From an uncultured bacterium (GTDB lineage Bacteria > RBG-13-61-14 > DATKZS01): a DNA stretch of 64,000 nt. The notes under the pieces are model-generated. The model was not told where the DNA came from, searched no databases, and saw only the letters and a list, made by a program, of their open reading frames with translations. Position 1 is the first letter of the stretch. Each line of letters begins with the position of its first letter. The DNA lies in the NCBI GenBank assembly GCA_964650485.1, contig CAZYTX010000015.1, forward strand, positions 6,182-70,181, in the 5' to 3' direction. Of the stretch, positions 1 to 61,652 are shown piece by piece. Position numbers and translations under genes: made by a program.

Positions 1-701
1 CCGACGGCTTGTCCGAGCCTTCCCGAAAGTCCCTTGAAGAGGAGCTTCTGGAGAAGAGAGGCGTGGTGTCCCTTGATTACGTGGACAAGGACCAGGCCAT
101 GCTCGATTTCCACGCCATGCTGGGAGAGCGGGCGGAGATACTGGACGGCATGGAGGAGAACCCGCTGCCTGCAAGCTTCGTGCTCTCCCTGGACCCGGGA
201 GCAAGGAGCATGCAGGAGGTGGAGAAGCTGGCCGGGTCCATTCAAGAGATGCAGGGCGTGGACGAGGTTGACTACGGTGCGCGCCTCCTTGAGAGCTTCT
301 TTGCCGCGGGGAGGATAGCCCGGGCCGCGGTGCTTTTCATAGGGGGGCTGGTGGCAATGGCCGCTGCATTCATAGTGTCCAACACCATCAGGCTGACCAT
401 GTACGCCCGGGCCGAGGAGATAGGGATCATGAAGCTGGTGGGCGCGGGCAAGGCCCTTGTGCGCCTGCCCTTTGTGATCGAGGGTGTGCTCCAGGTCGTT
501 GCAGCGTCCTGCACGGGTTGCGCGCTTTTGTGGCTGCTTTTCCGCATGGGTCTCCAGGGCGTGCATTTCCCTGGCCTGCTGGGCGGGTTCGAACCGGTGT
601 TCCTCTCCGCCCCCGCAGTGTGGGCCATTCTGGGAGCGGGAGCGCTCATGGGCGCGGCCGGGAGCATGAGCAGGGTAAGGGTGTTCCTCAAGATGCAATG
701 A
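1..701 (+). CDS. ftsX: Cell division ABC transporter permease FtsX, C-terminal part (5' end lies outside window)
   Basis: ORF 9..701 is open to the window edge. It has 4 TM segments typical of FtsX (AAVLFIGGLVAMAAAFIVSNTIRLTMYAR...GIMKLVGAG) and sits directly upstream of an EnvC-like M23 gene, the usual ftsEX-envC order. Confidence 0.75.
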   Translation, partial: DGLSEPSRKSLEEELLEKRGVVSLDYVDKDQAMLDFHAMLGERAEILDGMEENPLPASFVLSLDPGARSMQEVEKLAGSIQEMQGVDEVDYGARLLESFFAAGRIARAAVLFIGGLVAMAAAFIVSNTIRLTMYARAEEIGIMKLVGAGKALVRLPFVIEGVLQVVAASCTGCALLWLLFRMGLQGVHFPGLLGGFEPVFLSAPAVWAILGAGALMGAAGSMSRVRVFLKMQ

Positions 702-706
702 AACCC

Positions 707-802
707 GGTAACACATAGCTTTGCTATGTGTGCGACCGAAGGGAGCAGGTTGTGGAGGAAGGAGCAAGAAGACATTGGAAAAATTCTGGTGAAGTGCACA
801 TG
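707..802 (+). repeat. Conserved intergenic leader module, copy A: 9-bp-stem hairpin CACATAGC-TTT-GCTATGTG, then GACCGAAGGGAGCAGGTTG, then GTGCACATGA spanning the start codon
   Basis: A ~47-nt core GGTAACACATAGCTTTGCTATGTGTGCGACCGAAGGGAGCAGGTTG is near-identical to the reverse complement of 10587-10636. Both copies lie in the same orientation relative to transcription, 5-15 nt after an upstream stop codon, and end in GTGCACATGA containing the downstream ATG. Confidence 0.6.
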
Positions 803-2086
803 ACCTGCTCGCTCCGCTCGCCCACAAAGCAGAGCTTTGTGGGTTGCCTTTTGAAAGTGGAGCGGAAAACCATTAAAGCTCTGAAAGAGCGACGGTCTAT
901 AGCCCCGGGCACGCCCCGCCAGGGGCGCAGCCCTGGGAAAGCCCTTGCTGCCGCGGTGCTGTTTGCGGTCTCGGCCTGGGGTCTGGCGTATGGCTCCGAG
1001 GGCCTGGTGAAGCGGTCCGAGATAAGCCGGGAGCTCGATCGCACCAGGCAACAGATGGAACGGGAGAGACGCGCCCTGGATGAGCTCATGGGCAGGGAGG
1101 GGCGGCTGCTTGAGAAGCTCGCGGCCTTGAAGAGGCAGCTCGCCCGCTCGCGGTCCCGGCTCTCCGATCTGGCCGCAAAAAAGCGGAACCTCGAGGAGCA
1201 GGAGAGGGAGCTGGTGCAGAAGATCAGCGATCTTGAAGCGGAGCTCGCGGAGAAAAAGCGCAGCATGGGAGAGCGTCTTTCCGCCCGCTACCGCTTCGAG
1301 AGGCGCGGGTCGCTCTCTTTCTGGCTGGGCGCGGAGAGCATCTCCGCTCTGTCCAGGCGCGCCCGCTACCTGGAGGACCTTTTCCTGGCCGATAAGAAGA
1401 AGGTGGAGTCCTATAAGACGCTGCTGGCCGAGCTCTTTGAAACACAGGAGGAGCTCTCGGAGAAGCGGCGCGACCTCGATTCCCTGCACCGCGTCGAGCT
1501 CGAGCAGGAGAGGGCCCTTGCCAGGCAGAAGAGCTCGTATGAAGGCATGCTGCGCAAGGTGAACCTTGAGCGGGAGGCGCACGAGCAGCTCCTTGCCGAG
1601 CTTAAAAGGAGCGCGGAGCGTCTTGAGTCCCTTATCGAGGAGCTTGCAAAAGAGGGCTCCAGCGGTGGTGAGTTCGAGTCCAGGAAGGGCTCCCTGTGCT
1701 TTCCTGCCCCGGGCGAGGTGGTCTCCGAGTTCGGCAAGAAGGTGCACCCGCGCTTTTTAACCGTGACCATGCAGAAGGGCATAGAGATCGGCGCCGGAGG
1801 AGGGGCGCCGGTGAGGGCGGTGTCATCTGGCGTGGTCAGGTTCGCGGAGTGGTTCATGGGCTACGGCAACCTGGTGATCCTTGACCACGGCAACGGGTTC
1901 TACACCCTTTACGGGCACCTGGCGGAGTTCAGGTCCGGGGTAGGAGGTCGTGTCGAGCGGGGCGAGGTTATCGGGCTGGTGGGTGACACGGGCTCGCTTT
2001 CCGGGCCTTCGTTGTACTTCGAGATCAGGCGGCGGCTTACGCCCATGGACCCGGCTGAGTGGCTCGCGGACTGCGTGGAGGGATGA
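800..2086 (+). CDS. envC: Murein hydrolase activator EnvC-like protein (signal peptide, long coiled coil, C-terminal M23/LytM peptidase domain)
   Basis: Start ATG at 800 is set by the conserved leader GTGCACATGA; ORF track start 728 is probably too early. It has a hydrophobic N-terminus ALAAAVLFAVSAWGLAYG and a REL/KRQ coiled coil. The C-terminal GYGNLVILDHGNGFYTLYGHL...GDTGSLSGPSLYFEIR matches M23 peptidases. It follows ftsX. Confidence 0.7.
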   Translation: MTCSLRSPTKQSFVGCLLKVERKTIKALKERRSIAPGTPRQGRSPGKALAAAVLFAVSAWGLAYGSEGLVKRSEISRELDRTRQQMERERRALDELMGREGRLLEKLAALKRQLARSRSRLSDLAAKKRNLEEQERELVQKISDLEAELAEKKRSMGERLSARYRFERRGSLSFWLGAESISALSRRARYLEDLFLADKKKVESYKTLLAELFETQEELSEKRRDLDSLHRVELEQERALARQKSSYEGMLRKVNLEREAHEQLLAELKRSAERLESLIEELAKEGSSGGEFESRKGSLCFPAPGEVVSEFGKKVHPRFLTVTMQKGIEIGAGGGAPVRAVSSGVVRFAEWFMGYGNLVILDHGNGFYTLYGHLAEFRSGVGGRVERGEVIGLVGDTGSLSGPSLYFEIRRRLTPMDPAEWLADCVEG

Positions 2087-6633: not shown

Positions 6634-7566
6634 ATGCATCCGGTAATCGAGATCATAGATATAGTCTCGCCTGTTTTCCTGCTTATCGGGGTGGGCTACG
6701 CCCTTGGCTCCAGGGGGTTTATGGGGCCGGAGGCGGTCTCGGTTCTTTCCAGGCTGGTGTTTTACGTTGCCGCGCCCCCGCTGCTTTTCAGGAGCGCGGC
6801 AGGGGCGGACCTGTCCCGGGCACTTGACATGGGCTCCATCGCCTGGATAGCGCTGGTGACCGTGCTCACAGCCTCCGCCACATACGCGCTCGCGGCATGG
6901 ACCAGGCCCGAGCGCCGGGGTGTGATCGCCCAGGGTGTCTTCCGCACCAACATGGTGTTCGTGGGGCTTCCGGTGATCATGAACGCCTTTGGCGAGGAGG
7001 TTCTGGGCCCGGCCGCGGTGCTCATAGGCTTCATGGTGCCGGTGTACAACCTCCTTGCCGTGCTGGTGCTCTCCCTGCCGCATAAGAGCGCGCAAGGCCC
7101 CGGGTCCCTGCTTTGGAAGACTGCGCGCGAGGTGGTGTTGAACCCTCTCATCCTGGGCAGCGCCGGGGGCATGGTCTTCTCCGCGCTGGGCCTTGCCCTG
7201 CCCGTGTTCGCGGACCGCACCTTCGATCTCTTGGGAAGGATAGCCATGCCGCTCGCGCTCCTGGTGGTGGGCGCCGGGCTTGACGTTCAGAGGCTGCGCA
7301 CCGAGCTGAGAGCGGCCTCCCTCATCTCTTTTATCAAGCTGATAATATACCCCGCGCTTATCTATGCGGGGCTCAGGATGGCCGGGGTCTCCGGGGTGTC
7401 GCTGCAGTTCCCGGTGCTGCTCATGGCCGCGCCCACCGCGGTGGCCAGCCACATCATGGCCCGGGAGATGGGAGGCGATTCTCAGCTTTCCTCCGCGGTC
7501 GTTATCGGCGCCACCCTGAGTTCACTTTTCACCATTACCCTGTGGCTGGTGTTCTTCAGGCTCTGA
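6634..7566 (+). CDS. AEC (auxin efflux carrier / malate permease) family transporter
   Basis: 310 aa, ~10 TM helices in a 5+5 arrangement separated by a hydrophilic loop. Composition is typical of the PF03547 membrane transport family. Confidence 0.65.
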   Translation: MHPVIEIIDIVSPVFLLIGVGYALGSRGFMGPEAVSVLSRLVFYVAAPPLLFRSAAGADLSRALDMGSIAWIALVTVLTASATYALAAWTRPERRGVIAQGVFRTNMVFVGLPVIMNAFGEEVLGPAAVLIGFMVPVYNLLAVLVLSLPHKSAQGPGSLLWKTAREVVLNPLILGSAGGMVFSALGLALPVFADRTFDLLGRIAMPLALLVVGAGLDVQRLRTELRAASLISFIKLIIYPALIYAGLRMAGVSGVSLQFPVLLMAAPTAVASHIMAREMGGDSQLSSAVVIGATLSSLFTITLWLVFFRL

Positions 7567-7613
7567 CCGCGAAAAGTTTTGCAGGCCGCCCGGGGTCTGC
7601 TAATCTAGAATGC

Positions 7614-8822
7614 ATGAAGCCTTTCCAGGTGCTGGTAAAGCCCGCAGCGGGCGATTGCAACCTTGCATGCGAGTACTGCTTTTACCGGAGCACCACGCCC
7701 GAGCTCTACCCCGATCAGAAAAAACACCGCATGAGCCGCGAGGTCATGGAACTGCTGGTGAAAGACCTCCTCTCCTACCGCTTTGCCGAGACCATCTTTT
7801 CATGGCAGGGAGGCGAGCCCACCCTCATGGGACTCGATTTTTTCGAGGACGTGATCCGCGCGCAGATGGACAATGGAAAGGGCGGCCAGGTGGTGGGCAA
7901 CGCGCTCCAGACCAACGGCATCCTCATAAACGACGACTGGGCCAGGTTCCTTTCCCGCTACAAGGTGGTGGTGGGACTTTCCCTGGACGGACCACGGGAT
8001 GTTCACGACCGCTTTCGGAAGAGCGCGGGAGGAGGGCCTACCTTTGACCGGGTGATGGAGGCCGCGGAGGTGATGAAAAGGCGGGGCGTGGCCTTTAATA
8101 TCCTCTGCGTGGTGAACCGGTATAACCAGGACCTGGGCCGCGAGGTTTTCCGGTTTTTCAAGGCCCAGGGTTTCGATTACATCCAGTTCATACCCTGCCT
8201 GGAGACGCACCCCGAGAGCTGCGAGGTCATGCCCTTCTCGGCCACGCCCGACGGGCTGGCCCGCTTCTTTTGCCGGGTGTTCGAGGAGTACGCCGCGGAG
8301 GGTTTCCCCCGGGTGTCGGAGCGCAACTTCGACGCGCTCCTCAGCATGCACGTTACAGGCAGCCCGGGTCTTTGCACCTTCGAGGACAAGTGCGGCTCCT
8401 ACCTGGTGGTCGAGTACAACGGGGACATATACCCTTGCGACTTCTTCGTGGAGGAGAAGTGGCGGCTGGGGAACCTGGGCGACAAGCGGCTGGGCGAGTT
8501 CTTCGAGCACCCCCTGATGCACAAGTTCGCCGCGGCCAAGCAGAAGGTCCCGGCCGAGTGCAGGCGGTGCAGGTGGTACGCCTGGTGCTTCGGCGGTTGT
8601 CTCAAGGACAGGCTCCCGCACCGGGCGGATGGCCCGGGCAAGAGCCGGTTCTGCGAGTCCTACCTTGCCATGTTCGAATGCTCGCAAGAGAAGATGGAGA
8701 AGTGGGCGGAGATGGTGAGGCAAAGGGACGGTCAGGCGGAGCAGGAGGGGAAAAGGCCCGGCAGGAACGCCCCCTGCCCCTGCGGCTCCGGGAAGAAGTA
8801 CAAGAAGTGCTGCGGCGCGTGA
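7614..8822 (+). CDS. Radical SAM / SPASM-domain maturase of the anaerobic sulfatase-maturating enzyme (anSME) type with a C-terminal SecA-like SEC-C zinc-binding tail
   Basis: N-terminal VLVKPAAGDCNLACEYCFY (Cx3Cx2C). C-terminal Cys clusters CTFEDKCG...YPCDFF...CRRCRWYAWCFGGC fit SPASM. The last 20 aa, [20 protein letters not shown], form a SEC-C motif. Start is at MKPFQ (ATG 7614). Confidence 0.7.
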   Translation: MKPFQVLVKPAAGDCNLACEYCFYRSTTPELYPDQKKHRMSREVMELLVKDLLSYRFAETIFSWQGGEPTLMGLDFFEDVIRAQMDNGKGGQVVGNALQTNGILINDDWARFLSRYKVVVGLSLDGPRDVHDRFRKSAGGGPTFDRVMEAAEVMKRRGVAFNILCVVNRYNQDLGREVFRFFKAQGFDYIQFIPCLETHPESCEVMPFSATPDGLARFFCRVFEEYAAEGFPRVSERNFDALLSMHVTGSPGLCTFEDKCGSYLVVEYNGDIYPCDFFVEEKWRLGNLGDKRLGEFFEHPLMHKFAAAKQKVPAECRRCRWYAWCFGGCLKDRLPHRADGPGKSRFCESYLAMFECSQEKMEKWAEMVRQRDGQAEQEGKRPGRNAPCPCGSGKKYKKCCGA

Positions 8823-8831
8823 GCTTCCACA

Positions 8832-9842
8832 CTATGGTTCTACGTATACCCGCTGGCGCCTGGACGGAGGGCTCTGGTTGGGCGCCGCCGCGTTGTCCAC
8901 CGCGGTGATCGCGTACTCGTACTCCGCGCCGGCCCTGGCGGTCCGGTCGAGGTAACCGGTCTCTTTCAGGGGGTCGAGGAATAGCTGCTTGAAGTCGGTC
9001 TTTCCCGGCCTCCTCCTCCATACCAGGTACCCGTCGAGGTCCGGCTCCTGGTTCATAAGCCAGGAAAGCTGAACACCCTCGCCGGTCCAGGCGGCGCTCA
9101 CCCCCTTGGGCGCCGCGGGCGGGACCTTGTCCACCGGGACCACGCTGACCCGGGCCGGCGGCCCCTCCACACTCGGGTACCCGGGCGGCTGGATCATTGC
9201 CCTTATCTCGTAGAAGTATTGGGCCCCGTTCTCGACGGGGCCGTCGGAGAAGCGGGTCGCGGCGATGGGCTCCGGGTTCACTGGATGGAAGGACTCGAGT
9301 GCCGGGCTCCCGGTCCGGTACAGGTTATATAAGAGGCCGGGTGGTGCGCCTTCCGGGGGCCGCCATGTTACGTCCGCGTGACCGTCGCCCGGCTCGGCCG
9401 CGGGGTTCTTTGGCGCACCCGGCGGCTGCGGGTTCATGGCCTTCACCGGCCCCGCGGCCTCGCCGCTCTCCTGCTCCGCTGATACGCCCCGGACCTTGTA
9501 AAGAGCGGCCCGGCCGTGCTCCAGGGAGCAGTCGGAAAAGCGGGTCTTGTCCGTGCTTTCAATGACCATATACGAAGGCGATCCCCTGTGGCCGGGCTCC
9601 TCGGCGCGCAGCACCTGGTAGCTTGTCGCGGCCACCTTTTGCGGGGGCTTTTCCTCCGGCGCTGTCCAGGACAGCTCTACGCAACCCTCGCGCACCAGCG
9701 CGGCAAGGTCCCCGGGCCTGGCCGGCGCCGGGACCAGCGGCGGCTCCGGCAAGGCCTTCACCCCGCAGTAGCAGAGCAGGAGACCGGCCGCGCACAAAGG
9801 CGTGTATATTATAGGGTATTGGAGGCGCTTGCCTGAGATCAT
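8832..9842 (-). CDS. Secreted protein with three fibronectin type III-like repeats
   Basis: N-terminal hydrophobic segment with LLLCYCG. Three ~90-aa repeats, each starting with a P-rich linker then a Y/W-rich beta motif (LSWTAPE..., VTWRPPE..., LSWLMNQ...). Start ATGA overlaps the hisA stop. Confidence 0.5.
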   Translation of the reverse strand: MISGKRLQYPIIYTPLCAAGLLLCYCGVKALPEPPLVPAPARPGDLAALVREGCVELSWTAPEEKPPQKVAATSYQVLRAEEPGHRGSPSYMVIESTDKTRFSDCSLEHGRAALYKVRGVSAEQESGEAAGPVKAMNPQPPGAPKNPAAEPGDGHADVTWRPPEGAPPGLLYNLYRTGSPALESFHPVNPEPIAATRFSDGPVENGAQYFYEIRAMIQPPGYPSVEGPPARVSVVPVDKVPPAAPKGVSAAWTGEGVQLSWLMNQEPDLDGYLVWRRRPGKTDFKQLFLDPLKETGYLDRTARAGAEYEYAITAVDNAAAPNQSPPSRRQRVYVEP

Positions 9843-10573
9843 TCCCCCGCGTCCTTTGCAATCTTTATGGCCCGGGCCAGGTCCAGGGTCCCCTCGTAAA
9901 TGGCCCTGCCGGTGATCACCCCTATGACCCCGTCCTCCTCGTGCTTTTTAATCTGCATAATATGCTCGATAGTCTTGACGCCCCCGGAGGCTATGACCGG
10001 GAGGCTTATTTTCCGTGCCAGGTCCGCGGTGCTCTCCACCGACGGCCCGGTCATCATGCCGTCCCTTTTTATGTCCGTGTATATGATGGCGGCCACCTCC
10101 ATTCCCTGGTAGGGCGCGGCCAGCTCGGCCGCGGGGACGTCGGTGAGCTCGGCCCACCCCTTGACCGAGACCTTCCCCTCCCTGGCGTCCACGCCCACCG
10201 CTATCCTTTTCGGGTAAGCTTCACTCGCCCTTTCCACCAGTTGGGGGTCCTTGTGCGCCGCGGTGCCCAGCACCACCCGGTGCACGCCCTCCTGCAGGTA
10301 TGACTTTATCGTATGCATGCGTCGCAGGCCGCCGCCCAGCTCCACGGGGACATCCACGGCCTTTACAACATCGAGCACCGCCTCCCTGTTCACGGGCCCT
10401 CCGGCGAACGCCCCCTCCAGGTCCACCACGTGTATGAGCTCCGCGCCCATGGACGCCCACTTGCGGGCCACGGCAGCAGGGTCGTCCGAGTAGGCCTTGT
10501 CCCTGTCCATCATGCCCTGCTCGAGCCTGACCACCCTGCCCCCTTTCAGGTCTATGGCGGGAATGACAATCAT
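9839..10573 (-). CDS. hisA: HisA-like (beta/alpha)8 isomerase: 1-(5-phosphoribosyl)-5-[(5-phosphoribosylamino)methylideneamino]imidazole-4-carboxamide isomerase
   Basis: MIVIPAIDLKGGRVVRL...GGGLRR...VVLGTAA...ASGGVKTIEHI are HisA/HisF family signatures. The start ATG at 10573 lies in the conserved leader module. No other his genes are nearby. Confidence 0.65.
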   Translation of the reverse strand: MIVIPAIDLKGGRVVRLEQGMMDRDKAYSDDPAAVARKWASMGAELIHVVDLEGAFAGGPVNREAVLDVVKAVDVPVELGGGLRRMHTIKSYLQEGVHRVVLGTAAHKDPQLVERASEAYPKRIAVGVDAREGKVSVKGWAELTDVPAAELAAPYQGMEVAAIIYTDIKRDGMMTGPSVESTADLARKISLPVIASGGVKTIEHIMQIKKHEEDGVIGVITGRAIYEGTLDLARAIKIAKDAGE

Positions 10574-10640
10574 GTGCACCTTTCCATCCAACCTGCTCCC
10601 TTCGGTCGCACACATAGCAAGCTATGCGTGTTACCGCCAC
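10574..10640 (-). repeat. Conserved intergenic leader module, copy B (10-bp-stem hairpin with one compensatory G-U, GGGAGCAGG, GTGCACATGA at the hisA start)
   Basis: Reverse complement of 10587-10636 matches 709-756 at about 45 of 48 nt. It lies between the mutase stop (10653) and the hisA start (10573). Confidence 0.6.
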
Positions 10641-31024: not shown

Positions 31025-31057
31025 CATCTGCAATACTCCGCAATAAGATGTTTATTT

Positions 31058-31160
31058 CGCACAGAGACACAGAGATGCAGAGATTCGGAATTTTTATTGC
31101 GAGAAAAAATCTCTGAGATTTATTTCTCTTCTTCTGTGTCCTCTGTGCCTCTGTGCGAGA
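31058..31160. repeat. Inverted arrays of 8-bp direct repeats (CACAGAGA x3 ... ~55-bp AT-rich spacer ... TCTGTGYC x3 ending CTCTGTGCCTCTGTGCGA), copy 1
   Basis: Left arm CGCACAGAGACACAGAGATGCAGAGAT, right arm TCTGTGTCCTCTGTGCCTCTGTGCGAGA. It is flanked by T-rich runs and sits ~40 bp upstream of the ABC ATPase start. The 18-nt CTCTGTGCCTCTGTGCGA recurs identically at 58460-58477. Confidence 0.6.
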
Positions 31161-31203
31161 CAATTTTTTATGCCACCTATTTCGGGAGCGCGCCGGAAGA
31201 ATT

Positions 31204-55609: not shown

Positions 55610-56605
55610 ATGAAGACAAAGGTTTTCGCTTTGTCGGTCGCGGCGCTTTTTTTAGTCGGGACCTACGCCTGTTCGCTGAAGGAAGTGGATAAAGCGGTGG
55701 ACACCGCGGATAAGGCGGCGGGCCTGGCTGAAAAGTTCGAGGACAAGGCCGAGGAAAAGAAGGGGTCCTCCGAAGGGGGAGAGACCGCCCAGGCTGCCGG
55801 AGGGGTTAGGCAACAAAGCGGTGTAAGGATTGACAAGTACGAGCCCAACGAGGACCTGCTGAGCCCCACCCAGGTCGAGTTGCCAGCCACCATAAAAGCC
55901 ACAATCGAGCCCGCAGGAGATATTGATTTTTACAAGTTCCACGTTGCCTCGAACAAAAGGGAATTGGTGAATGTCACCTTGCTTAACCCCACCACCAACC
56001 TTCGTCCTTGTTTGCATTTTTACAACCAGAACAGGGAACGCTTTGGGGGAACTGGTAGAGTACAACCCGGAACTGCAAAGGTCGGTGGAGAAATTATCGC
56101 CCTGCCAAATCAGGATTACTATGTAGCAGCATGTACTTCTTCATCAGGCAATTGCGCATGCAGAGAATCAGGAGGAAATTCCAGCAAGTATTACACCCTG
56201 AAGATAGAGCTTGCCGGAGTGGGTGATAAATATGAGCCCAATGAATCACTTACTGAGGCCACCACAGTCTCCCCCGGGAAAATAAAAGGCACCATCAACC
56301 CGAAAAACGACAAGGATGTTTACAAGGTCCGGTTCAGCAGGTCCGGCACAGTAAAGGTCACATTCCATAACCCCACGCTTAACCTTCAACCTTGTCTGCA
56401 TTTTTACGACCAGAACCGGCAACAATTTGGTCAAACGAGTAGGGTTCAAGCCGGCGCAGCCAAGACCGGAGGCAAATTCAATGTACAGCCCAATCAGGAT
56501 TATTATGTAAAAGTATGTACCTCTTCATCAGGTAATTGCGCATGCAGAGGATCGGGAGGAAATTCAGAAAAACCTTACACCCTTGAGATCAGGATGGTAG
56601 AGTAA
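55610..56605 (+). CDS. Lipoprotein/secreted protein with two tandem pre-peptidase C-terminal (PPC)-like domains
   Basis: Signal peptide MKTKVFALSVAALFLVGTYAC. Two ~125-aa repeats, each DKYEPNE...IEP.GD.DFYKF/VYKV...L.N.PCLHFY.QNR..FG...YYV..CTSSSGNCACR..GGNS.K.YTL, matching the DxYEPND...D.DwY.F...YYi.V pattern of PPC domains. Lower GC than neighbours. Confidence 0.5.
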   Translation: MKTKVFALSVAALFLVGTYACSLKEVDKAVDTADKAAGLAEKFEDKAEEKKGSSEGGETAQAAGGVRQQSGVRIDKYEPNEDLLSPTQVELPATIKATIEPAGDIDFYKFHVASNKRELVNVTLLNPTTNLRPCLHFYNQNRERFGGTGRVQPGTAKVGGEIIALPNQDYYVAACTSSSGNCACRESGGNSSKYYTLKIELAGVGDKYEPNESLTEATTVSPGKIKGTINPKNDKDVYKVRFSRSGTVKVTFHNPTLNLQPCLHFYDQNRQQFGQTSRVQAGAAKTGGKFNVQPNQDYYVKVCTSSSGNCACRGSGGNSEKPYTLEIRMVE

Positions 56606-58340: not shown

Positions 58341-58378
58341 CTTAGCGGGCCTTTAAATAGAATCATACATTTTTTATT

Positions 58379-58477
58379 CACACAGAGGCACGGAGAGCAC
58401 AGAGGAAAGAAAAATAACATAGCGTATGTTCCCGTTTATTGTTCATCCAGCTCTGTATTCTCTGTGCCTCTGTGCGA
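58379..58477. repeat. Inverted arrays of 8-bp direct repeats, copy 2 (CACAGAGG CACGGAGAG CACAGAGG ... spacer ... CTCTGTAT TCTCTGTGC CTCTGTGCGA)
   Basis: Same arm sequences as 31058-31160 (18-nt identity CTCTGTGCCTCTGTGCGA). On the minus strand the proximal arm lies ~40 bp upstream of the rSAM paralog-3 start codon. Sits between secA and that gene. Confidence 0.6.
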
Positions 58478-58553
58478 AAAAACCTTGCTCATACCTATCT
58501 TGGACAGCAATGAAAAGTAGTACAAACCCCGGGGACACTCATCAGTATGGCGC

Positions 58554-61500
58554 TTACACCCCGCAGCACTTCTTGTACTTCTTTCCCGAGCCGCAGGGAC
58601 AGGGGTCGTTCCTTCCCACCTTGGGGACCTCGTGCCTGAAGGTCACGGGCTTCTCGTCTTCCGCTGGACTGATGGGCTCGCGGCCCCCGTCGGGCGCTGA
58701 CTCCGCTGCCTGGGCCGCGGGCATGGCCGGCCTTCCGCCCCTTCCGGCCCTCATGCCTCGTATTGCCCTGCGCCTCCTCTCCATCCTCTCCTGCTCCGGG
58801 TCAACGGGCTGGATGCGGGAGATCCTCTGCACGGCCTCGGAGTGCACGTTGAACACGAAGTCCTGGAACAGGTTTATGGACTCGCGCTTGTACTCGACCA
58901 GGGGGTCCTTCTGCCCGTATCCCGCCAGTCCGATGCCCTCTTTGAGGTGGTCCATGTCCAGGAGGTGGTCCTGCCACAAAGAGTCAATGGTGAAAAGGTA
59001 TATGTCCTTCTCCACCTGGTCCATGGTCTCGGTTCCGATGGCTTCGCGCTTTTGCTGGTACGACTTTATTGCCTGCTCTGCTATCATGCTTGCGAGGTCG
59101 TCCGGGTGGGTGGAGTCCAGCTTCTCCGGGTCCAGGATCACGGCCACCCCGAGCTGCTGCGCCGCCTTGAGGGTCATCTGTTTCCAGTCCCACTCCTCCT
59201 CGGGTGTCTTCTCGTCGCCGAAGGAGTAGACGATGTCCTCGGCCACCCGGGTGACGGCGTCCTCCACCCGGGCCTGGATGCCCTCCTCCCTCATGATGTC
59301 GCGCCGGAGCCCGTAGACTATCTCCCGCTGCTGGTTCATCACGTCGTCGTAGTCCAGCAGCCGCTTCCTGATCTCGAAGTTGTGTTGCTCGACCTTTGCC
59401 TGTGCGCGCTGTATGGCCCTGGACACCATCTTGTGCTCGATGGGCTCGTTGTCCTCGATCCCGATCCTGTCCATTATCTTTGCCAGCGAGTCGGAGCCGA
59501 AGATGCGCATGAGGTCGTCCTCGAGTGAGAGGTAGAAGCGAGAGCTTCCCGGGTCCCCCTGCCTGCCGGATCGTCCCCGGAGCTGGTTGTCAATGCGCCG
59601 GGACTCGTGCCTCTCGGTGCCGATGATGTGCAGCCCCCCCTGGTCCACCACCTTGTTGTGCTCGTCCTCCCACGCGGCGCGGAACCTGGCCATGAGCTCC
59701 TTGAACCTCTCCTCGTCCCCCTTGGCCGCGGTCTTGGCCATCATCTCCGGGTTGCCGCCCAGTATGATGTCTGTGCCGCGTCCGGCCATGTTGGTGGATA
59801 TGGTGACCGCTCCCAGCCGGCCGGCCTGTGCCACTATCTCTGCCTCCCTCTCGTGGTGCTTGGCGTTCAGGATATTATGGCGTATGCCGCGGTTCTTTAG
59901 CATGCGGTGCAGCCGCTCGGACTTCTCCACCGAGGTGGTGCCCACCAGTATGGGCTGGCCGGTCTCGTTGACTTGTTCGATCTCTTCCACCACCGCGGCG
60001 AACTTCTGCTTCTCGGTCTTGTAAATAACATCCGAATGGTCCTCCCTCACCATGGGCATGTGGGTGGGGATGACCCTCACGTCCATCTTGTAGGTGTTGT
60101 GGAACTCCTCCTCCTCGGTCTCCGCGGTGCCGGTCATTCCGGCAAGCTTCTTGTACATGCGGAAGTAGTTCTGCAGGGTGATGGTGGCGATGGTTTGTGT
60201 GGCCTTTGCGATTGAGAGGTTCTCCTTGGCCTCGATGGCCTGGTGGAGCCCGTCCGAGTACCTTCTCCCTTCCATCTTCCTGCCGGTGAACTCGTCCACT
60301 ATCACCACCCGTCCGTTCTCGACCATGTACTCGTCGTCCAGCTCGAACATGTTGTAGGCTTTGAGGAGCTGGCTTACCACGTGCAGCTTCTCGCTCTTGT
60401 CCTGGTAGTCACGGGTGAGCTCGTCCAGCCTGGCGGCCTTGTCCTCCGCGGACAGGCTCTCGTCACGGTTGATCTCGTCCTCCGCTGTGGAGAGCTCGGG
60501 CAGCACGAACACGTCTCCGATGATGCCCACGAGCTCCTCCTGTCCCTCCTCGGTCAGCTCGATTGAGTTGTCCTGCTCGTTGTGCGCGTAGAGCAGCCCC
60601 TTTTTCAGCTCGTACAGGGTCTTGTTCATGCGGAGCTGGTTCTGCACCCGCTCCATCTCCTTTTTTGTCTCCTTGTTGGAGGCGATGAGGTTGAACAGCT
60701 CCTTGTTCTTGGGGTCTCCGGCCTGCACCTGGCAGAGCTTGAAGTAGTACTCCTCGCTGGCGCCGTTGTCCTTCTGCAGGCGGCGGGCCTCGGAGAAAAT
60801 CTTCCTCACTATCTGCTTCTGCCTTTTCACCAGCCGCTCCACCGGCTGCCTGAGCTCGGCATAGGCCCTGGTGTCGTCCCGGTCAACCTCCCCGGATATG
60901 ATGAGCGGGGTGCGGGCCTCGTCTATGAGTATCGAGTCAACCTCGTCAACTATGGCGTAGTAGAGGGGATCGGGCTGCACCATCTCTTCCGCCCGGTGCT
61001 TCAAGTTGTCGCGCAGGTAGTCGAACCCGAACTCGGAGTTGGTCCCGTATGTCACGTCGCAGGAGTAGGCCTGCTTCCTCTCCTCGTCGGGCATGTCGTG
61101 CTGCAGGGAGGAGGCGGAGAGCCCCAGCAGGTTGTACACCGGTCCCATCCACTCGGCGTCGCGCCGCGCCAGGTAGTCGTTCACCGTGATGACGTGCACC
61201 CCCTGTCCCAGCAGGGCGTTCAGGGCCACAGGGCAGGTGGCGGCCAGGGTCTTTCCCTCGCCGGTCTTCATCTCCGCTATCTTGCCCTGGTGCAGGGCGA
61301 TGGCGCCCAGCATCTGCACGTCGTAATGGCGCTGTCCCAGGGTGCGCCTGGCAGCCTCCCTGGTGGCGGCGAACACCTCGGGTAACAGCCCGTCGAGCTT
61401 TTTCATGTAGCGGTCCCAGTCATCGTCGGTGAAGTTCCTGCGCTCCTCCTGGACAGCATCCCAGTCTTTATCAAAGATGCGCTTCCGCCACTTCCCGGCC

Positions 61501-61652
61501 AGGCCGCTCATCTGCTCGTCGGTCATGGACTCGAACTCGGGCTCGAGCGCGTTGATCTCGTGGACTATGGGCCATATCTCTTTTAGCACGCGCTCGTTCT
61601 TGGACCCGAAGATCCTGACCGCGATCGAGCTTAGGCTGGACATTACTGACAT
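58554..61652 (-). CDS. secA: Preprotein translocase ATPase SecA (with C-terminal SEC-C zinc-binding motif)
   Basis: 1032 aa. N-terminal [17 protein letters not shown]-like motor motifs, C-terminal [20 protein letters not shown]. Confidence 0.95.

What the first reader, a model, noticed from the sequence alone, without database searches (positions are those of the whole stretch)
707..802. A ~50-nt structured leader module (hairpin + GGGAGCAGG + GTGCACATGA start context) is duplicated in front of two unrelated genes (envC-like at 800 and hisA at 10573)
Alignment of 707-802 with the reverse complement of 10574-10640 gives GGTAACAC(A/GCA)TAGCTT(T)GCTATGTGTGCGACCGAAGGGAGCAGGTTG nearly identical in both copies, then a divergent stretch, then GGTGCACATGA with the ATG of the downstream gene. 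Copy A carries a ~30-nt insertion. Both copies are in the same orientation relative to transcription and both sit 5-15 nt after the stop of an upstream co-directional gene (ftsX, mutase). The hairpin differs between copies by a change that keeps pairing (C-G versus G-U), suggesting selection on RNA structure. The DNA is also an 8-bp inverted repeat, so it could be an operator. It could be a translational-coupling or processing element, a regulatory-protein or sRNA target, or a miniature mobile RBS cassette. The two protein products share no similarity, so this is not a gene duplication.
Basis: seen in the sequence. Interest (0 to 1): 0.7.

Follow-up and report, generated by a model that had tools for sequence, protein, structure and literature searches.

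The report
Small hairpin-forming mobile repeat, not a leader
The duplicated "leader" is the end of a small non-coding repeat of the REP/REPIN or MITE kind: one complete copy sits between ftsX and a peptidase gene and one broken copy abuts hisA, which is an ordinary feature of bacterial genomes.

Summary
The duplication is real. A 30-nt exact core occurs twice in the window against 0 expected by chance, and GTGCACATGA is also shared.

The ~48-nt module is one terminal unit of a ~144-nt element (window 705-848). Its two ends are inverted copies of each other, and each end carries its own stem-loop. Copy A is complete and fills the ftsX-M23 peptidase junction, which is only 1-5 nt long in three relatives. 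The ATG at 800 lies inside the element. Homologues of the peptidase start about 65 residues further in.

Copy B (10638-10570, minus strand) is a 3'-truncated singlet. Its remnant runs up to the hisA start codon.

The same end units occur in a related MAG (CAXXFL01, HisA 65% identical). That MAG holds at least 7 full ~190-nt copies and 1 singlet, all intergenic, in either orientation to neighbouring genes, and with an unrelated centre. One further copy is in a metagenome contig.

Compensatory changes preserve the stem-loop within each unit. No target-site duplication was found. IS110-family insertion sequences have landed at one fixed point of the unit three times.

It is best read as a REPIN-like non-autonomous mobile repeat. 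The mobilising enzyme was not found. This is a new member of a known kind, of low interest.

The parts
705..848 (+). Copy A: complete repeat element (5' unit, centre, inverted 3' unit) filling the ftsX-M23 intergenic space
   Evidence: An nhmmer profile of the full element matches 702-854 (E 3e-32), and the unit profile matches 704-753 (+) and 852-799 (-). It aligns end to end with the CAXXFL01 copies. It folds into one long hairpin: -66.2 kcal/mol as RNA, z -5.3.
707..754 (+).
711..731 (+). Stem-loop of the 5' unit: ACACATAGC-TTT-GCTATGTGT
   Evidence: Pair counts over 16 units are.
755..796 (+). Purine-rich centre (spacer) of copy A. It is unrelated in sequence to the ~120-nt centre of the CAXXFL01 copies.
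797..848 (+). 3' terminal unit of copy A, an inverted copy of the 5' unit: CACATGACCTGCTCGCTCCGCTCGCCCACAAAGCAGAGCTTTGTGGGTTGCC. It contains the ATG at 800-802.
821..853 (+). Stem-loop of the 3' unit (CCCACAAAGC-AGA-GCTTTGTGGG) followed by TTGCCTTTT. It looks like an intrinsic terminator on the + strand.
   Evidence: 11 pairs, tail TGCCTTTTGA
10570..10638 (-). Copy B: 3'-truncated copy. It has a 5' unit, a short centre and the first 7 nt (CACATGA) of the 3' unit, and then runs straight into hisA coding sequence.
   Evidence: The unit profile hit is 10637-10587 (E 3e-14).
10589..10635 (-). 5' unit of copy B: GGTAAC, stem-loop CACGCATAG/CTATGTGTG, GCGACCGAAGGGAGCAGGTTG
10570..10579 (-). GTGCACATGA: element-derived inner edge of the lost 3' unit. 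It carries the hisA start codon (10573-10571).
   Evidence: The hisA start position agrees with relatives (MQVIPAIDL and MLIIPAIDL).
857..2086 (+). M23 peptidase (EnvC-like) gene. The likely true start is GTG857 or TTG851, just past the element. The ORF is open back to 728 through the element.
9839..10573 (-). hisA. Its ribosome-binding region (GGAAAGG) and start codon lie in element-derived sequence.

Best explanation
The 'module' is one terminal unit of a small non-coding, non-autonomous repeat element of the REP-doublet (REPIN) / MITE kind. Each unit is GGTAAC, then a 9-10 bp stem-loop, then a ~22-nt tail. [quoted passage not shown]

Copy A (705-848) is a complete element that landed in the normally 1-5 nt junction between ftsX and the M23 peptidase gene.

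Copy B is a decaying singlet. Its 3' unit has been lost up to CACATGA, most simply by a deletion that ended at the hisA ATG(A). As a result the hisA ribosome-binding region and start codon now lie in element-derived DNA.

Shown: the anatomy, the family in other genomes, the variable orientation, within-unit compensation in the stem-loop, absence of target-site duplications, and the tight 'empty' junction in relatives.

Inferred: movement is catalysed in trans by an enzyme that recognises the stem-loops. A hairpin-binding Y1 (RAYT / IS200-IS605-like) transposase acting on single-stranded DNA is the best guess.

Effects on the neighbouring genes would be side effects of insertion, not the reason the sequence exists. 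These effects are loss of ftsX-M23 translational coupling, a terminator-like hairpin upstream of the M23 gene, and a hairpin about 10 nt after the ftsX stop.
For: - Inverted terminal units: the unit profile hits 704-753 (+), 852-799 (-) and 10637-10587 (-), and nothing else in 64 kb.
- Family elsewhere: the 18-mer scan of 185,579 genomes gave mostly chance hits, but 8 copies with the same GGTAAC, stem-loop and tail in MAG CAXXFL01. That is 7 full ~190-nt elements at 84-97% identity to each other and one singlet (L047 2936-2985). One more copy is in metagenome contig L083.
- CAXXFL01 is a relative of the window organism. Its HisA is 65% identical and comes from its 1,614,738-bp contig, and the hisA-fn3 gene pair is conserved.
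- Only the end units are conserved between the two genomes. The centres are unrelated.
- The stem-loop is kept by compensatory changes: 90% of cells are paired, 3 pairs change on both sides, and 0 of 500 shuffles reach this. The compensation is inside a unit (winA 3' unit CAAAGC/GCTTTG; L063 3' unit CATATAGC/GCTATATG), not between the two units.
- No target-site duplication appears at any boundary offset.
- Empty-site arrangement: in L084, L085 and L087 the ftsX stop and the M23 start are 1-5 nt apart, and no units occur in those loci. In the window the gap is 155 nt, of which the element takes 144.
- M23 homologues begin about residue 65-70 of ORF 728-2086.
- Orientation is not tied to genes in CAXXFL01.
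- IS110-family elements are inserted at ATGT^GGGTTAC of the unit in L047 and L078, and at the same point in L083. IS110 elements do this with REP sequences (PMC11208160).
- REPIN definition, and REP singlets as decaying remnants: PMC3337134.
Against: - No transposase of any kind, RAYT included, was found among the ~55 ORFs of the window or next to the copies in CAXXFL01. The mobilising enzyme is therefore unidentified.
- Only 1.5 copies are visible for the window's own genome, whose other contigs could not be reached.
- The unit (~48 nt) is longer than classical REPs (~20-40 nt), and its head is GTAAC rather than the GTAG typical of proteobacterial REPs.
- Relatives used as 'empty sites' are distant (about 50% M23 identity), so the insertion is inferred from arrangement, not from a near-identical empty allele.
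- IS1111-type elements also target transposon terminal repeats, so the IS110 insertions do not distinguish a REP from a MITE.
Confidence: 0.8

Rival explanations
1. One reading: a cis-acting structured leader (translational coupling, processing site, or protein/sRNA target) selected in front of start codons, with hairpin, GGGAGCAGG and GTGCACATGA as a portable expression cassette.
For: Both window copies are sense to the downstream gene and start 5-17 nt after an upstream stop. GGGAG lies 7 nt before GTG752, and GGAAAGG lies before the hisA ATG. In copy A, GAGCAGGTTGTG pairs with CACATGACCTGCTC over the ATG at 800. The hairpin shows compensatory change.
Against: The ATG at 800 and GTG752 lie upstream of where every homologue of the peptidase starts. 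The pairing over ATG800 is simply the two inverted end units annealing. In CAXXFL01 three of six copies are antisense to the neighbouring genes and lie downstream of stop codons. Copy B lacks the partner strand. No Rfam family matches.
Confidence: 0.06
2. A classical MITE: a deletion derivative of a DDE-transposase insertion sequence, recognised as double-stranded terminal inverted repeats and moved by cut-and-paste.
For: ~48-nt terminal inverted repeats, a small non-coding body with a variable centre, and multiple near-identical copies. IS1111-type elements are known to target transposon terminal repeats (reference list of PMC11208160).
Against: No target-site duplication appears at any offset in 7 copies. 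Each repeat is itself a palindrome kept by within-unit compensation, which a dsDNA-binding DDE enzyme does not need. No parent IS with these ends was seen. There are no matches in 72,556 plasmids or in viral contigs.
Confidence: 0.12
3. A structured non-coding RNA gene family (sRNA or ribozyme-like) present in several copies.
For: Very stable fold (z -5.3). The ends are conserved between genomes whose HisA proteins are only 65% identical. An asymmetric internal loop is conserved: CCGAAGG opposite GC[AG][TG]AGC.
Against: The centre is not conserved in sequence or length between genomes. RNAalifold found no compensatory pairs outside the end units. Orientation to transcription is variable. No promoter-like site was found. 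There is no Rfam match.
Confidence: 0.04
4. A one-off local duplication or gene conversion within this 10-kb region, with no mobility.
For: Only two loci in 64 kb, 9.8 kb apart and inverted.
Against: The same units occur in at least 8 places in another genome and in a third sample. The Logan contig of the same organism breaks inside the copy B hairpin, as assemblers do at repeats.
Confidence: 0.02

Closest known systems
REPINs (REP doublets forming hairpins) and BIMEs, mobilised by RAYT Y1 transposases (Bertels & Rainey 2011; PMC3337134, PMC3116915)
   Same: Two imperfect-palindrome units in inverted orientation around a spacer of variable length and sequence. The whole folds as a hairpin. The location is extragenic, often just after stop codons. 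Singlets occur as decayed remnants. There is no target-site duplication. IS110-family elements use them as targets. The sequences persist in related lineages.
   Different: The units are about twice as long (~48 nt) and carry a 22-nt conserved tail beyond the palindrome. The head is GTAAC, not GTAG. The copy number seen is low (at least 8 by exact 18-mer in one MAG). No RAYT gene was located. The host is an unclassified uncultured lineage, not Proteobacteria.
Bacterial MITEs such as Correia elements (Neisseria) and ERIC/IRU (enterobacteria); from my own knowledge
   Same: 100-200 nt non-coding elements with terminal inverted repeats. They insert between genes of operons, are co-transcribed as long hairpins, and can alter expression of the neighbours.
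   Different: Correia elements make a TA duplication, and ERIC has no internal palindrome in each end. Here there is no duplication, and each end is a self-complementary stem-loop.
IS200/IS605 ends (IS608, ISDra2); from my own knowledge
   Same: Subterminal stem-loops are recognised as single-stranded DNA, there is no target-site duplication, and left and right ends are asymmetric.
   Different: Those ends are not inverted copies of each other and flank a tnpA/tnpB gene. No such gene is seen here.
Integron attC sites (for example Vibrio VCRs); from my own knowledge
   Same: Imperfect palindromic repeats of about 60-140 nt with ...TAAC / GTTA... at the ends. They are targets of IS1111-attC-group elements.
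   Different: The core sites RYYYAAC / GTTRRRY are not matched (GGGTAAC / GTTACCC). The copies are dispersed rather than in cassette arrays, and the element is longer.

Membership tests
REP / REPIN | The unit contains a short imperfect palindrome with a conserved head | tested here: met
   GGTAAC followed by a 9-10 bp stem in all 16 units. 90% of cells are paired, and 3 pairs show compensatory change.
REP / REPIN | [quoted passage not shown] | tested here: met
   Window 707-754 and 797-848, with a fold of -66 kcal/mol. The same holds in 7 CAXXFL01 copies.
REP / REPIN | Extragenic and multi-copy within a genome | tested here: inconclusive
   All copies are intergenic. CAXXFL01 has at least 8 copies by exact 18-mer. 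For the window's own genome only 64 kb could be read (1 full copy and 1 singlet).
REP / REPIN | A RAYT (Y1 HUH transposase) gene in the genome, flanked by the same units | not testable with these tools
   No transposase domain was found in the ~55 window ORFs or in the neighbours of CAXXFL01 copies.
REP / REPIN | No target-site duplication | tested here: met
   No consistent direct repeat of 2-9 nt at any boundary offset in 7 copies.
REP / REPIN | Singlets exist as decaying remnants of doublets | tested here: met
   Copy B (truncated) and L047 2936-2985 (tail diverged: GCGACCGCCAGGAAGCAG). The definition is in PMC3337134.
MITE (DDE-type) | Terminal inverted repeats and a small non-coding body | tested here: met
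MITE (DDE-type) | Target-site duplication flanking each copy | tested here: not met
MITE (DDE-type) | A parent insertion sequence with the same terminal repeats | tested here: inconclusive
   None in the loci held. No matches in plasmids or viral contigs. The IS110 elements present have unrelated ends.
Cis-regulatory leader RNA / any Rfam family | Match to a curated covariance model | tested here: not met
   0 gathering-level hits in the window and in 3 related loci. Only sub-threshold miRNA-precursor look-alikes appear at E up to 10.
Cis-regulatory leader RNA / any Rfam family | Fixed orientation and distance to the regulated start codon | tested here: not met
   L041, L047b and L063 are antisense to the flanking genes. 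ATG800 is not the M23 start.
Integron attC | Core sites RYYYAAC ... GTTRRRY, in arrays of cassettes | tested here: not met
   The ends read GGGTAAC ... GTTACCC/GTTACGC. Copies are dispersed over three contigs.

The most novel reading that the evidence does not exclude
The units are the cargo of a long-lived, vertically inherited REPIN-RAYT-like partnership in an uncultured, unclassified bacterial lineage. They would have unusually long (~48 nt) units whose stem-loop, 22-nt tail and asymmetric internal loop (CCGAAGG opposite GC[AG][TG]AGC) have stayed about 90% identical, while a housekeeping protein (HisA) has drifted to 65% identity. In the window, one remnant would have been co-opted to supply the ribosome-binding site and start codon of hisA.
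Probability: 0.25. Interest if true: 0.4.

Novelty: new member of a known kind. Interest (0 to 1): 0.22.

Why it matters
Mainly for annotation. The element misleads gene callers. The NCBI call for the M23 peptidase starts at GTG752 inside the element (P0001, 444 aa). hisA has been called from GTG10579 (P0123, 246 aa) and from ATG10615 inside the hairpin (258 aa).

It also shows that an uncultured lineage carries REP-doublet-like repeats that serve as landing pads for IS110-family (bridge-RNA) elements. A repeat inserted in an ftsEX-envC operon junction must have changed how the peptidase gene is expressed.

Nothing here opens a long-standing question.

Tried and rejected
- Rfam at gathering threshold on the window and three related loci, and at E up to 10 on 650-900, gave no real match.
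- The genome-wide 18-mer scan gave 81 stretches. Most are chance or unrelated contexts: coding antisense, an orthologous 5' UTR in Gaiellaceae, and unrelated repeats in Saprospiraceae and Poriferihabitaceae. Only CAXXFL01 carries the family.
- The metagenome scan with a 26-base pattern gave one contig only.
- Two viral-contig scans gave 0 hits. The plasmid blastn gave 0 hits.
- Exact-protein look-ups: HisA as 244 aa and P0001 were not on record. The 258-aa call gave only a 1.3-kb Logan contig.
- The search for a transposase or RAYT in the window by Pfam over ~55 ORFs found none.
- The search for a target-site duplication found none.
- Covariation in the ~120-nt centre of the CAXXFL01 copies was not supported by RNAalifold, although CCAAG/CTTGG versus CTAAG/CTTAG in L068 looks compensatory by eye.
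- attC and Tn3-type terminal repeats were considered and rejected on end sequence and on the absence of a duplication.
- Inversion between the two window copies was considered as the origin of copy B. It was rejected because recombination between inverted copies would not truncate one of them.
- The sigma-70 promoter scan around both copies found nothing.

Full report
**Observation.**
The 30-mer GCTATGTGTGCGACCGAAGGGAGCAGGTTG occurs exactly at 723-752 (+) and 10618-10589 (-). It occurs nowhere else in the window with up to three mismatches, and none of 100 shuffles gave a match. Upstream of it both copies have GGTAAC and a 9-bp stem-loop. Downstream both have GTGCACATGA, with the ATG at 800-802 in copy A and at 10573-10571 in copy B. 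Copy A is about 31 nt longer between the two blocks.

By arithmetic, a shared 10-mer within a few tens of bases of an anchored alignment is expected about once in a thousand trials. The second block is therefore also inherited, not chance. The two copies lie in different reading frames relative to the downstream ORFs (GTG728 TGC GAC... versus ATG10615 TGT GCG...), so the similarity is not protein-coding.

**What copy A really is.**
Reading on past 802 shows a second stem-loop, CCCACAAAGC-AGA-GCTTTGTGGG (821-843). Before it lies CACATGACCTGCTCGCTCCGCTCG. The reverse complement of 797-848 aligns with 707-754 base for base, except for a 7-nt patch. An nhmmer profile of the unit finds three places in the 64 kb: 704-753 (+), 852-799 (-) and 10637-10587 (-).

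Copy A is therefore a complete ~144-nt element. It has two inverted terminal units, each with its own stem-loop, around a 42-nt purine-rich centre. As one strand it folds into a single long hairpin (-66.2 kcal/mol as RNA, z = -5.3; -32.5 as DNA, z = -4.8). The pairing of GAGCAGGTTGTG with CACATGACCTGCTC that covers the ATG at 800 is simply the two units annealing.

**The ATG at 800 is not the peptidase start.**
ORF 728-2086 carries a Peptidase_M23 domain. Its homologues are 380-400 aa long and cover only about 77% of the ORF. In the alignment they all begin just before the signal-peptide-like segment, about residue 65-70 of the ORF. The likely start is GTG857 or TTG851, immediately after the element.

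The ORF happens to stay open back through the element to 728. By arithmetic this has a probability above 0.1 for about 43 codons in G+C-rich DNA. The NCBI call (P0001, 444 aa) starts at GTG752 inside the element.

**Empty-site arrangement.**
In the three nearest relatives that could be fetched (M23 47-50% identical), the order is ftsE-ftsX-M23. The ftsX stop and the M23 start are 1-5 nt apart: GTGTGAGCTCCATG, GCGTGAGATG and GCGTGAGATG. None of those loci contains a unit.

In the window the gap is 155 nt, and the element takes 144 of it. This is what an insertion into a translationally coupled junction looks like. The relatives are too distant to give a near-identical empty allele.

**Copy B.**
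Copy B has a full 5' unit (10635-10589) and a 14-nt centre that matches the ends of copy A's centre. It then has only CACATGA of the 3' unit before hisA coding sequence begins. The hisA start is at the ancestral position: the window reads MIVIPAIDLK and relatives read MQVIPAIDLK and MLIIPAIDLK.

The simplest history is a full element upstream of hisA, followed by a deletion whose end fell on the ATG(A) shared by the element and hisA. This is inference. Only deletions that kept hisA intact would survive. The hisA ribosome-binding region (GGAAAGG) and start codon therefore now lie in element-derived DNA.

The gene upstream of hisA differs in the window (methylmalonyl-CoA mutase-like), in L089 (hisH plus an unknown gene) and in L090 (a methyltransferase). 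The downstream fn3-like gene is conserved in all three. Copy B thus sits at a synteny breakpoint.

**The family elsewhere.**
A scan of one genome per species (185,579 genomes) with GCGACCGAAGGGAGCAGG gave 81 stretches. By arithmetic about 17 are expected by chance for uniform composition, and several-fold more in G+C-rich genomes. Most hits are unrelated contexts.

One MAG, CAXXFL01 ("bacterium isolate 752fb81a"), has eight hits. In all of them the 18-mer is preceded by GGGTAACCCACATAGC-loop-CTATGTGG. It is followed about 120 nt later by CGACCTGCTCGCTATGCTCGCCCACATAGC-loop-GCTATGTGGGTTAC. That makes seven full ~190-nt elements, 84-97% identical to each other, plus one singlet with a decayed tail (L047 2936-2985). 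A metagenome contig (L083) holds one more unit.

CAXXFL01 is a relative of the window's organism. Its HisA (P0139, from the 1,614,738-bp contig) is 65% identical and among the best hits, and the hisA-fn3 pair is shared. Between the two genomes only the end units are conserved. The centres differ in length (42 versus ~120 nt) and have no similarity. One asymmetry between the two ends is conserved in both genomes: CCGAAGG in the 5' unit against GC[AG][TG]AGC in the inverted 3' unit.

**Which structure is selected.**
Over 16 units the 10-pair stem is 90% paired. Three pairs change on both sides, and no shuffle out of 500 reaches the observed values. Slid controls drop to 24-66% paired.

The compensating changes are within a unit. 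The window's 3' unit has CAAAGC/GCTTTG where its 5' unit has CATAGC/GCTATG. L063's 3' unit has CATATAGC/GCTATATG where its 5' unit keeps CATAGC/CTATG. These changes preserve the local stem-loop and spoil pairing between the two units.

So the local hairpin, not the long one, is what is kept. That fits recognition of a folded stem-loop, as by Y1 transposases of the IS200/IS605-RAYT type, better than recognition of double-stranded terminal repeats. No target-site duplication exists at any boundary offset in seven copies, which points the same way. RNAalifold on six CAXXFL01 copies found no compensatory pair in the centre.

**Relation to genes.**
In CAXXFL01 all copies are intergenic. In L041, L047b and L063 the element is antisense to the flanking genes. 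In L047b and L063 it lies 18-22 nt after the stop of a WD40-repeat gene and of era. In L068 it is sense and upstream of an HNH-endonuclease gene. There is no fixed relation to start codons, which removes the main support for a leader function.

**Mobilising enzyme.**
None was found. About 55 window ORFs have no transposase domain, and neither do the neighbours of the CAXXFL01 copies. Viral contigs and plasmids have no match.

IS110-family elements (DEDD_Tnp_IS110 plus Transposase_20) are inserted at ATGT^GGGTTAC of the unit in L047 (3181-4762) and L078 (identical copies). A 77%-identical element is inserted at the same point in L083. Their ends (GTAAACATGAAAGC... / ...GCTTTCATAGAT) are unrelated to the units, so they are guests, not parents. 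IS110 elements are known to insert into REP sequences, and IS1111-type elements into transposon terminal repeats (PMC11208160).

**Comparison with known kinds.**
The anatomy matches the definition of REPINs: two REPs in inverted orientation around a variable spacer, hairpin-forming, extragenic, with singlets as decaying remnants (PMC3337134). It differs in unit length, in the head sequence, and in the so far unseen RAYT. It also resembles MITEs such as Correia or ERIC elements, but fails the target-site-duplication test. attC sites and Rfam families are excluded (see the membership table).

**Likely consequences in the window (inferred, not shown).**
- Translational coupling of ftsX and the M23 gene is lost.
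- The 3' stem-loop followed by TTGCCTTTT scores as terminator-like.
- The first hairpin starts about 10 nt after the ftsX stop. From my own knowledge (Liang, Rudd & Deutscher 2015), E. coli REPs at that distance can lower expression of the upstream gene.

**Verdict.**
This is an uncatalogued family of an ordinary kind of bacterial repeat.

Noticed in passing
L047 3181-4762; L078 ~1-879 (minus strand); L083 ~186-1717: IS110/IS1111-type insertion sequences (DEDD_Tnp_IS110 plus Transposase_20, subterminal repeats CATGAAAGC/GCTTTCATAG) are inserted at the same point of the repeat unit, ATGT^GGGTTAC. This is seen in two places of MAG CAXXFL01 (100% identical copies) and, as a 77%-identical relative, in an unrelated metagenome contig. 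About 400 nt of non-coding DNA follows the recombinase gene and could encode its guide RNA.
   Followed up: partly
window 31050-31165 and 58375-58485: A second, A+T-rich hairpin-type intergenic repeat family with inverted ends TCGCACAGAG(A/G)CACAGAGA ... TCTCTGTGCCTCTGTGCGA. One copy lies between the HlyD-like and ABC-transporter genes, and one lies between a radical-SAM gene and secA.
   Followed up: partly
window 8760-8824 and 58552-58616: A 65-nt inverted repeat, 88% complementary. It encodes the C-terminal SEC-C zinc motif ([18 protein letters not shown]) both of a radical-SAM/SPASM protein (7542-8822) and of SecA (58554-61652). DNA-level similarity this high suggests a recent transfer of the motif between the two genes.
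   Followed up: partly
window 55967-56205 and 56351-56589: A 239-nt direct repeat at 75% identity, 384 nt apart. It lies inside an ORF (55610-56605) with low third-position G+C (0.55) and no Pfam match.
   Followed up: no
L015 590-640, L068 6217-6262, L078, L047 4763-4800: In four CAXXFL01 copies the 3' end GGGTTAC is followed by GCCGGAGG..CACGCC..GGGCAATGT and a second GGGTTACCTGTT. This is an extra ~37-nt module that repeats the terminal motif. In L078 the IS110 element sits in this second motif.
   Followed up: no
L041 3983-4291 and L063 3527-3833: These two copies share about 110 nt of flank beyond the element (94% over 309 nt). In L063 the shared flank overlaps the 3' end of era, so one copy arose by segmental duplication rather than clean transposition.
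   Followed up: no
window 752, 10579, 10615: Public gene calls start inside the repeat. The M23 peptidase is called from GTG752 (P0001, 444 aa). hisA is called from GTG10579 (P0123, 246 aa) and, in a Logan assembly, from ATG10615 in the hairpin (258 aa). That Logan contig (L001) begins inside the copy B hairpin.
   Followed up: yes
window 8832-10573; L089 10001-11765; L090 10001-11802: hisA is separated from the other his genes in the window and in L090. In all three genomes it is followed by a ~340-aa fibronectin-type-III-like protein, a conserved and unexplained gene pair in this lineage.
   Followed up: no
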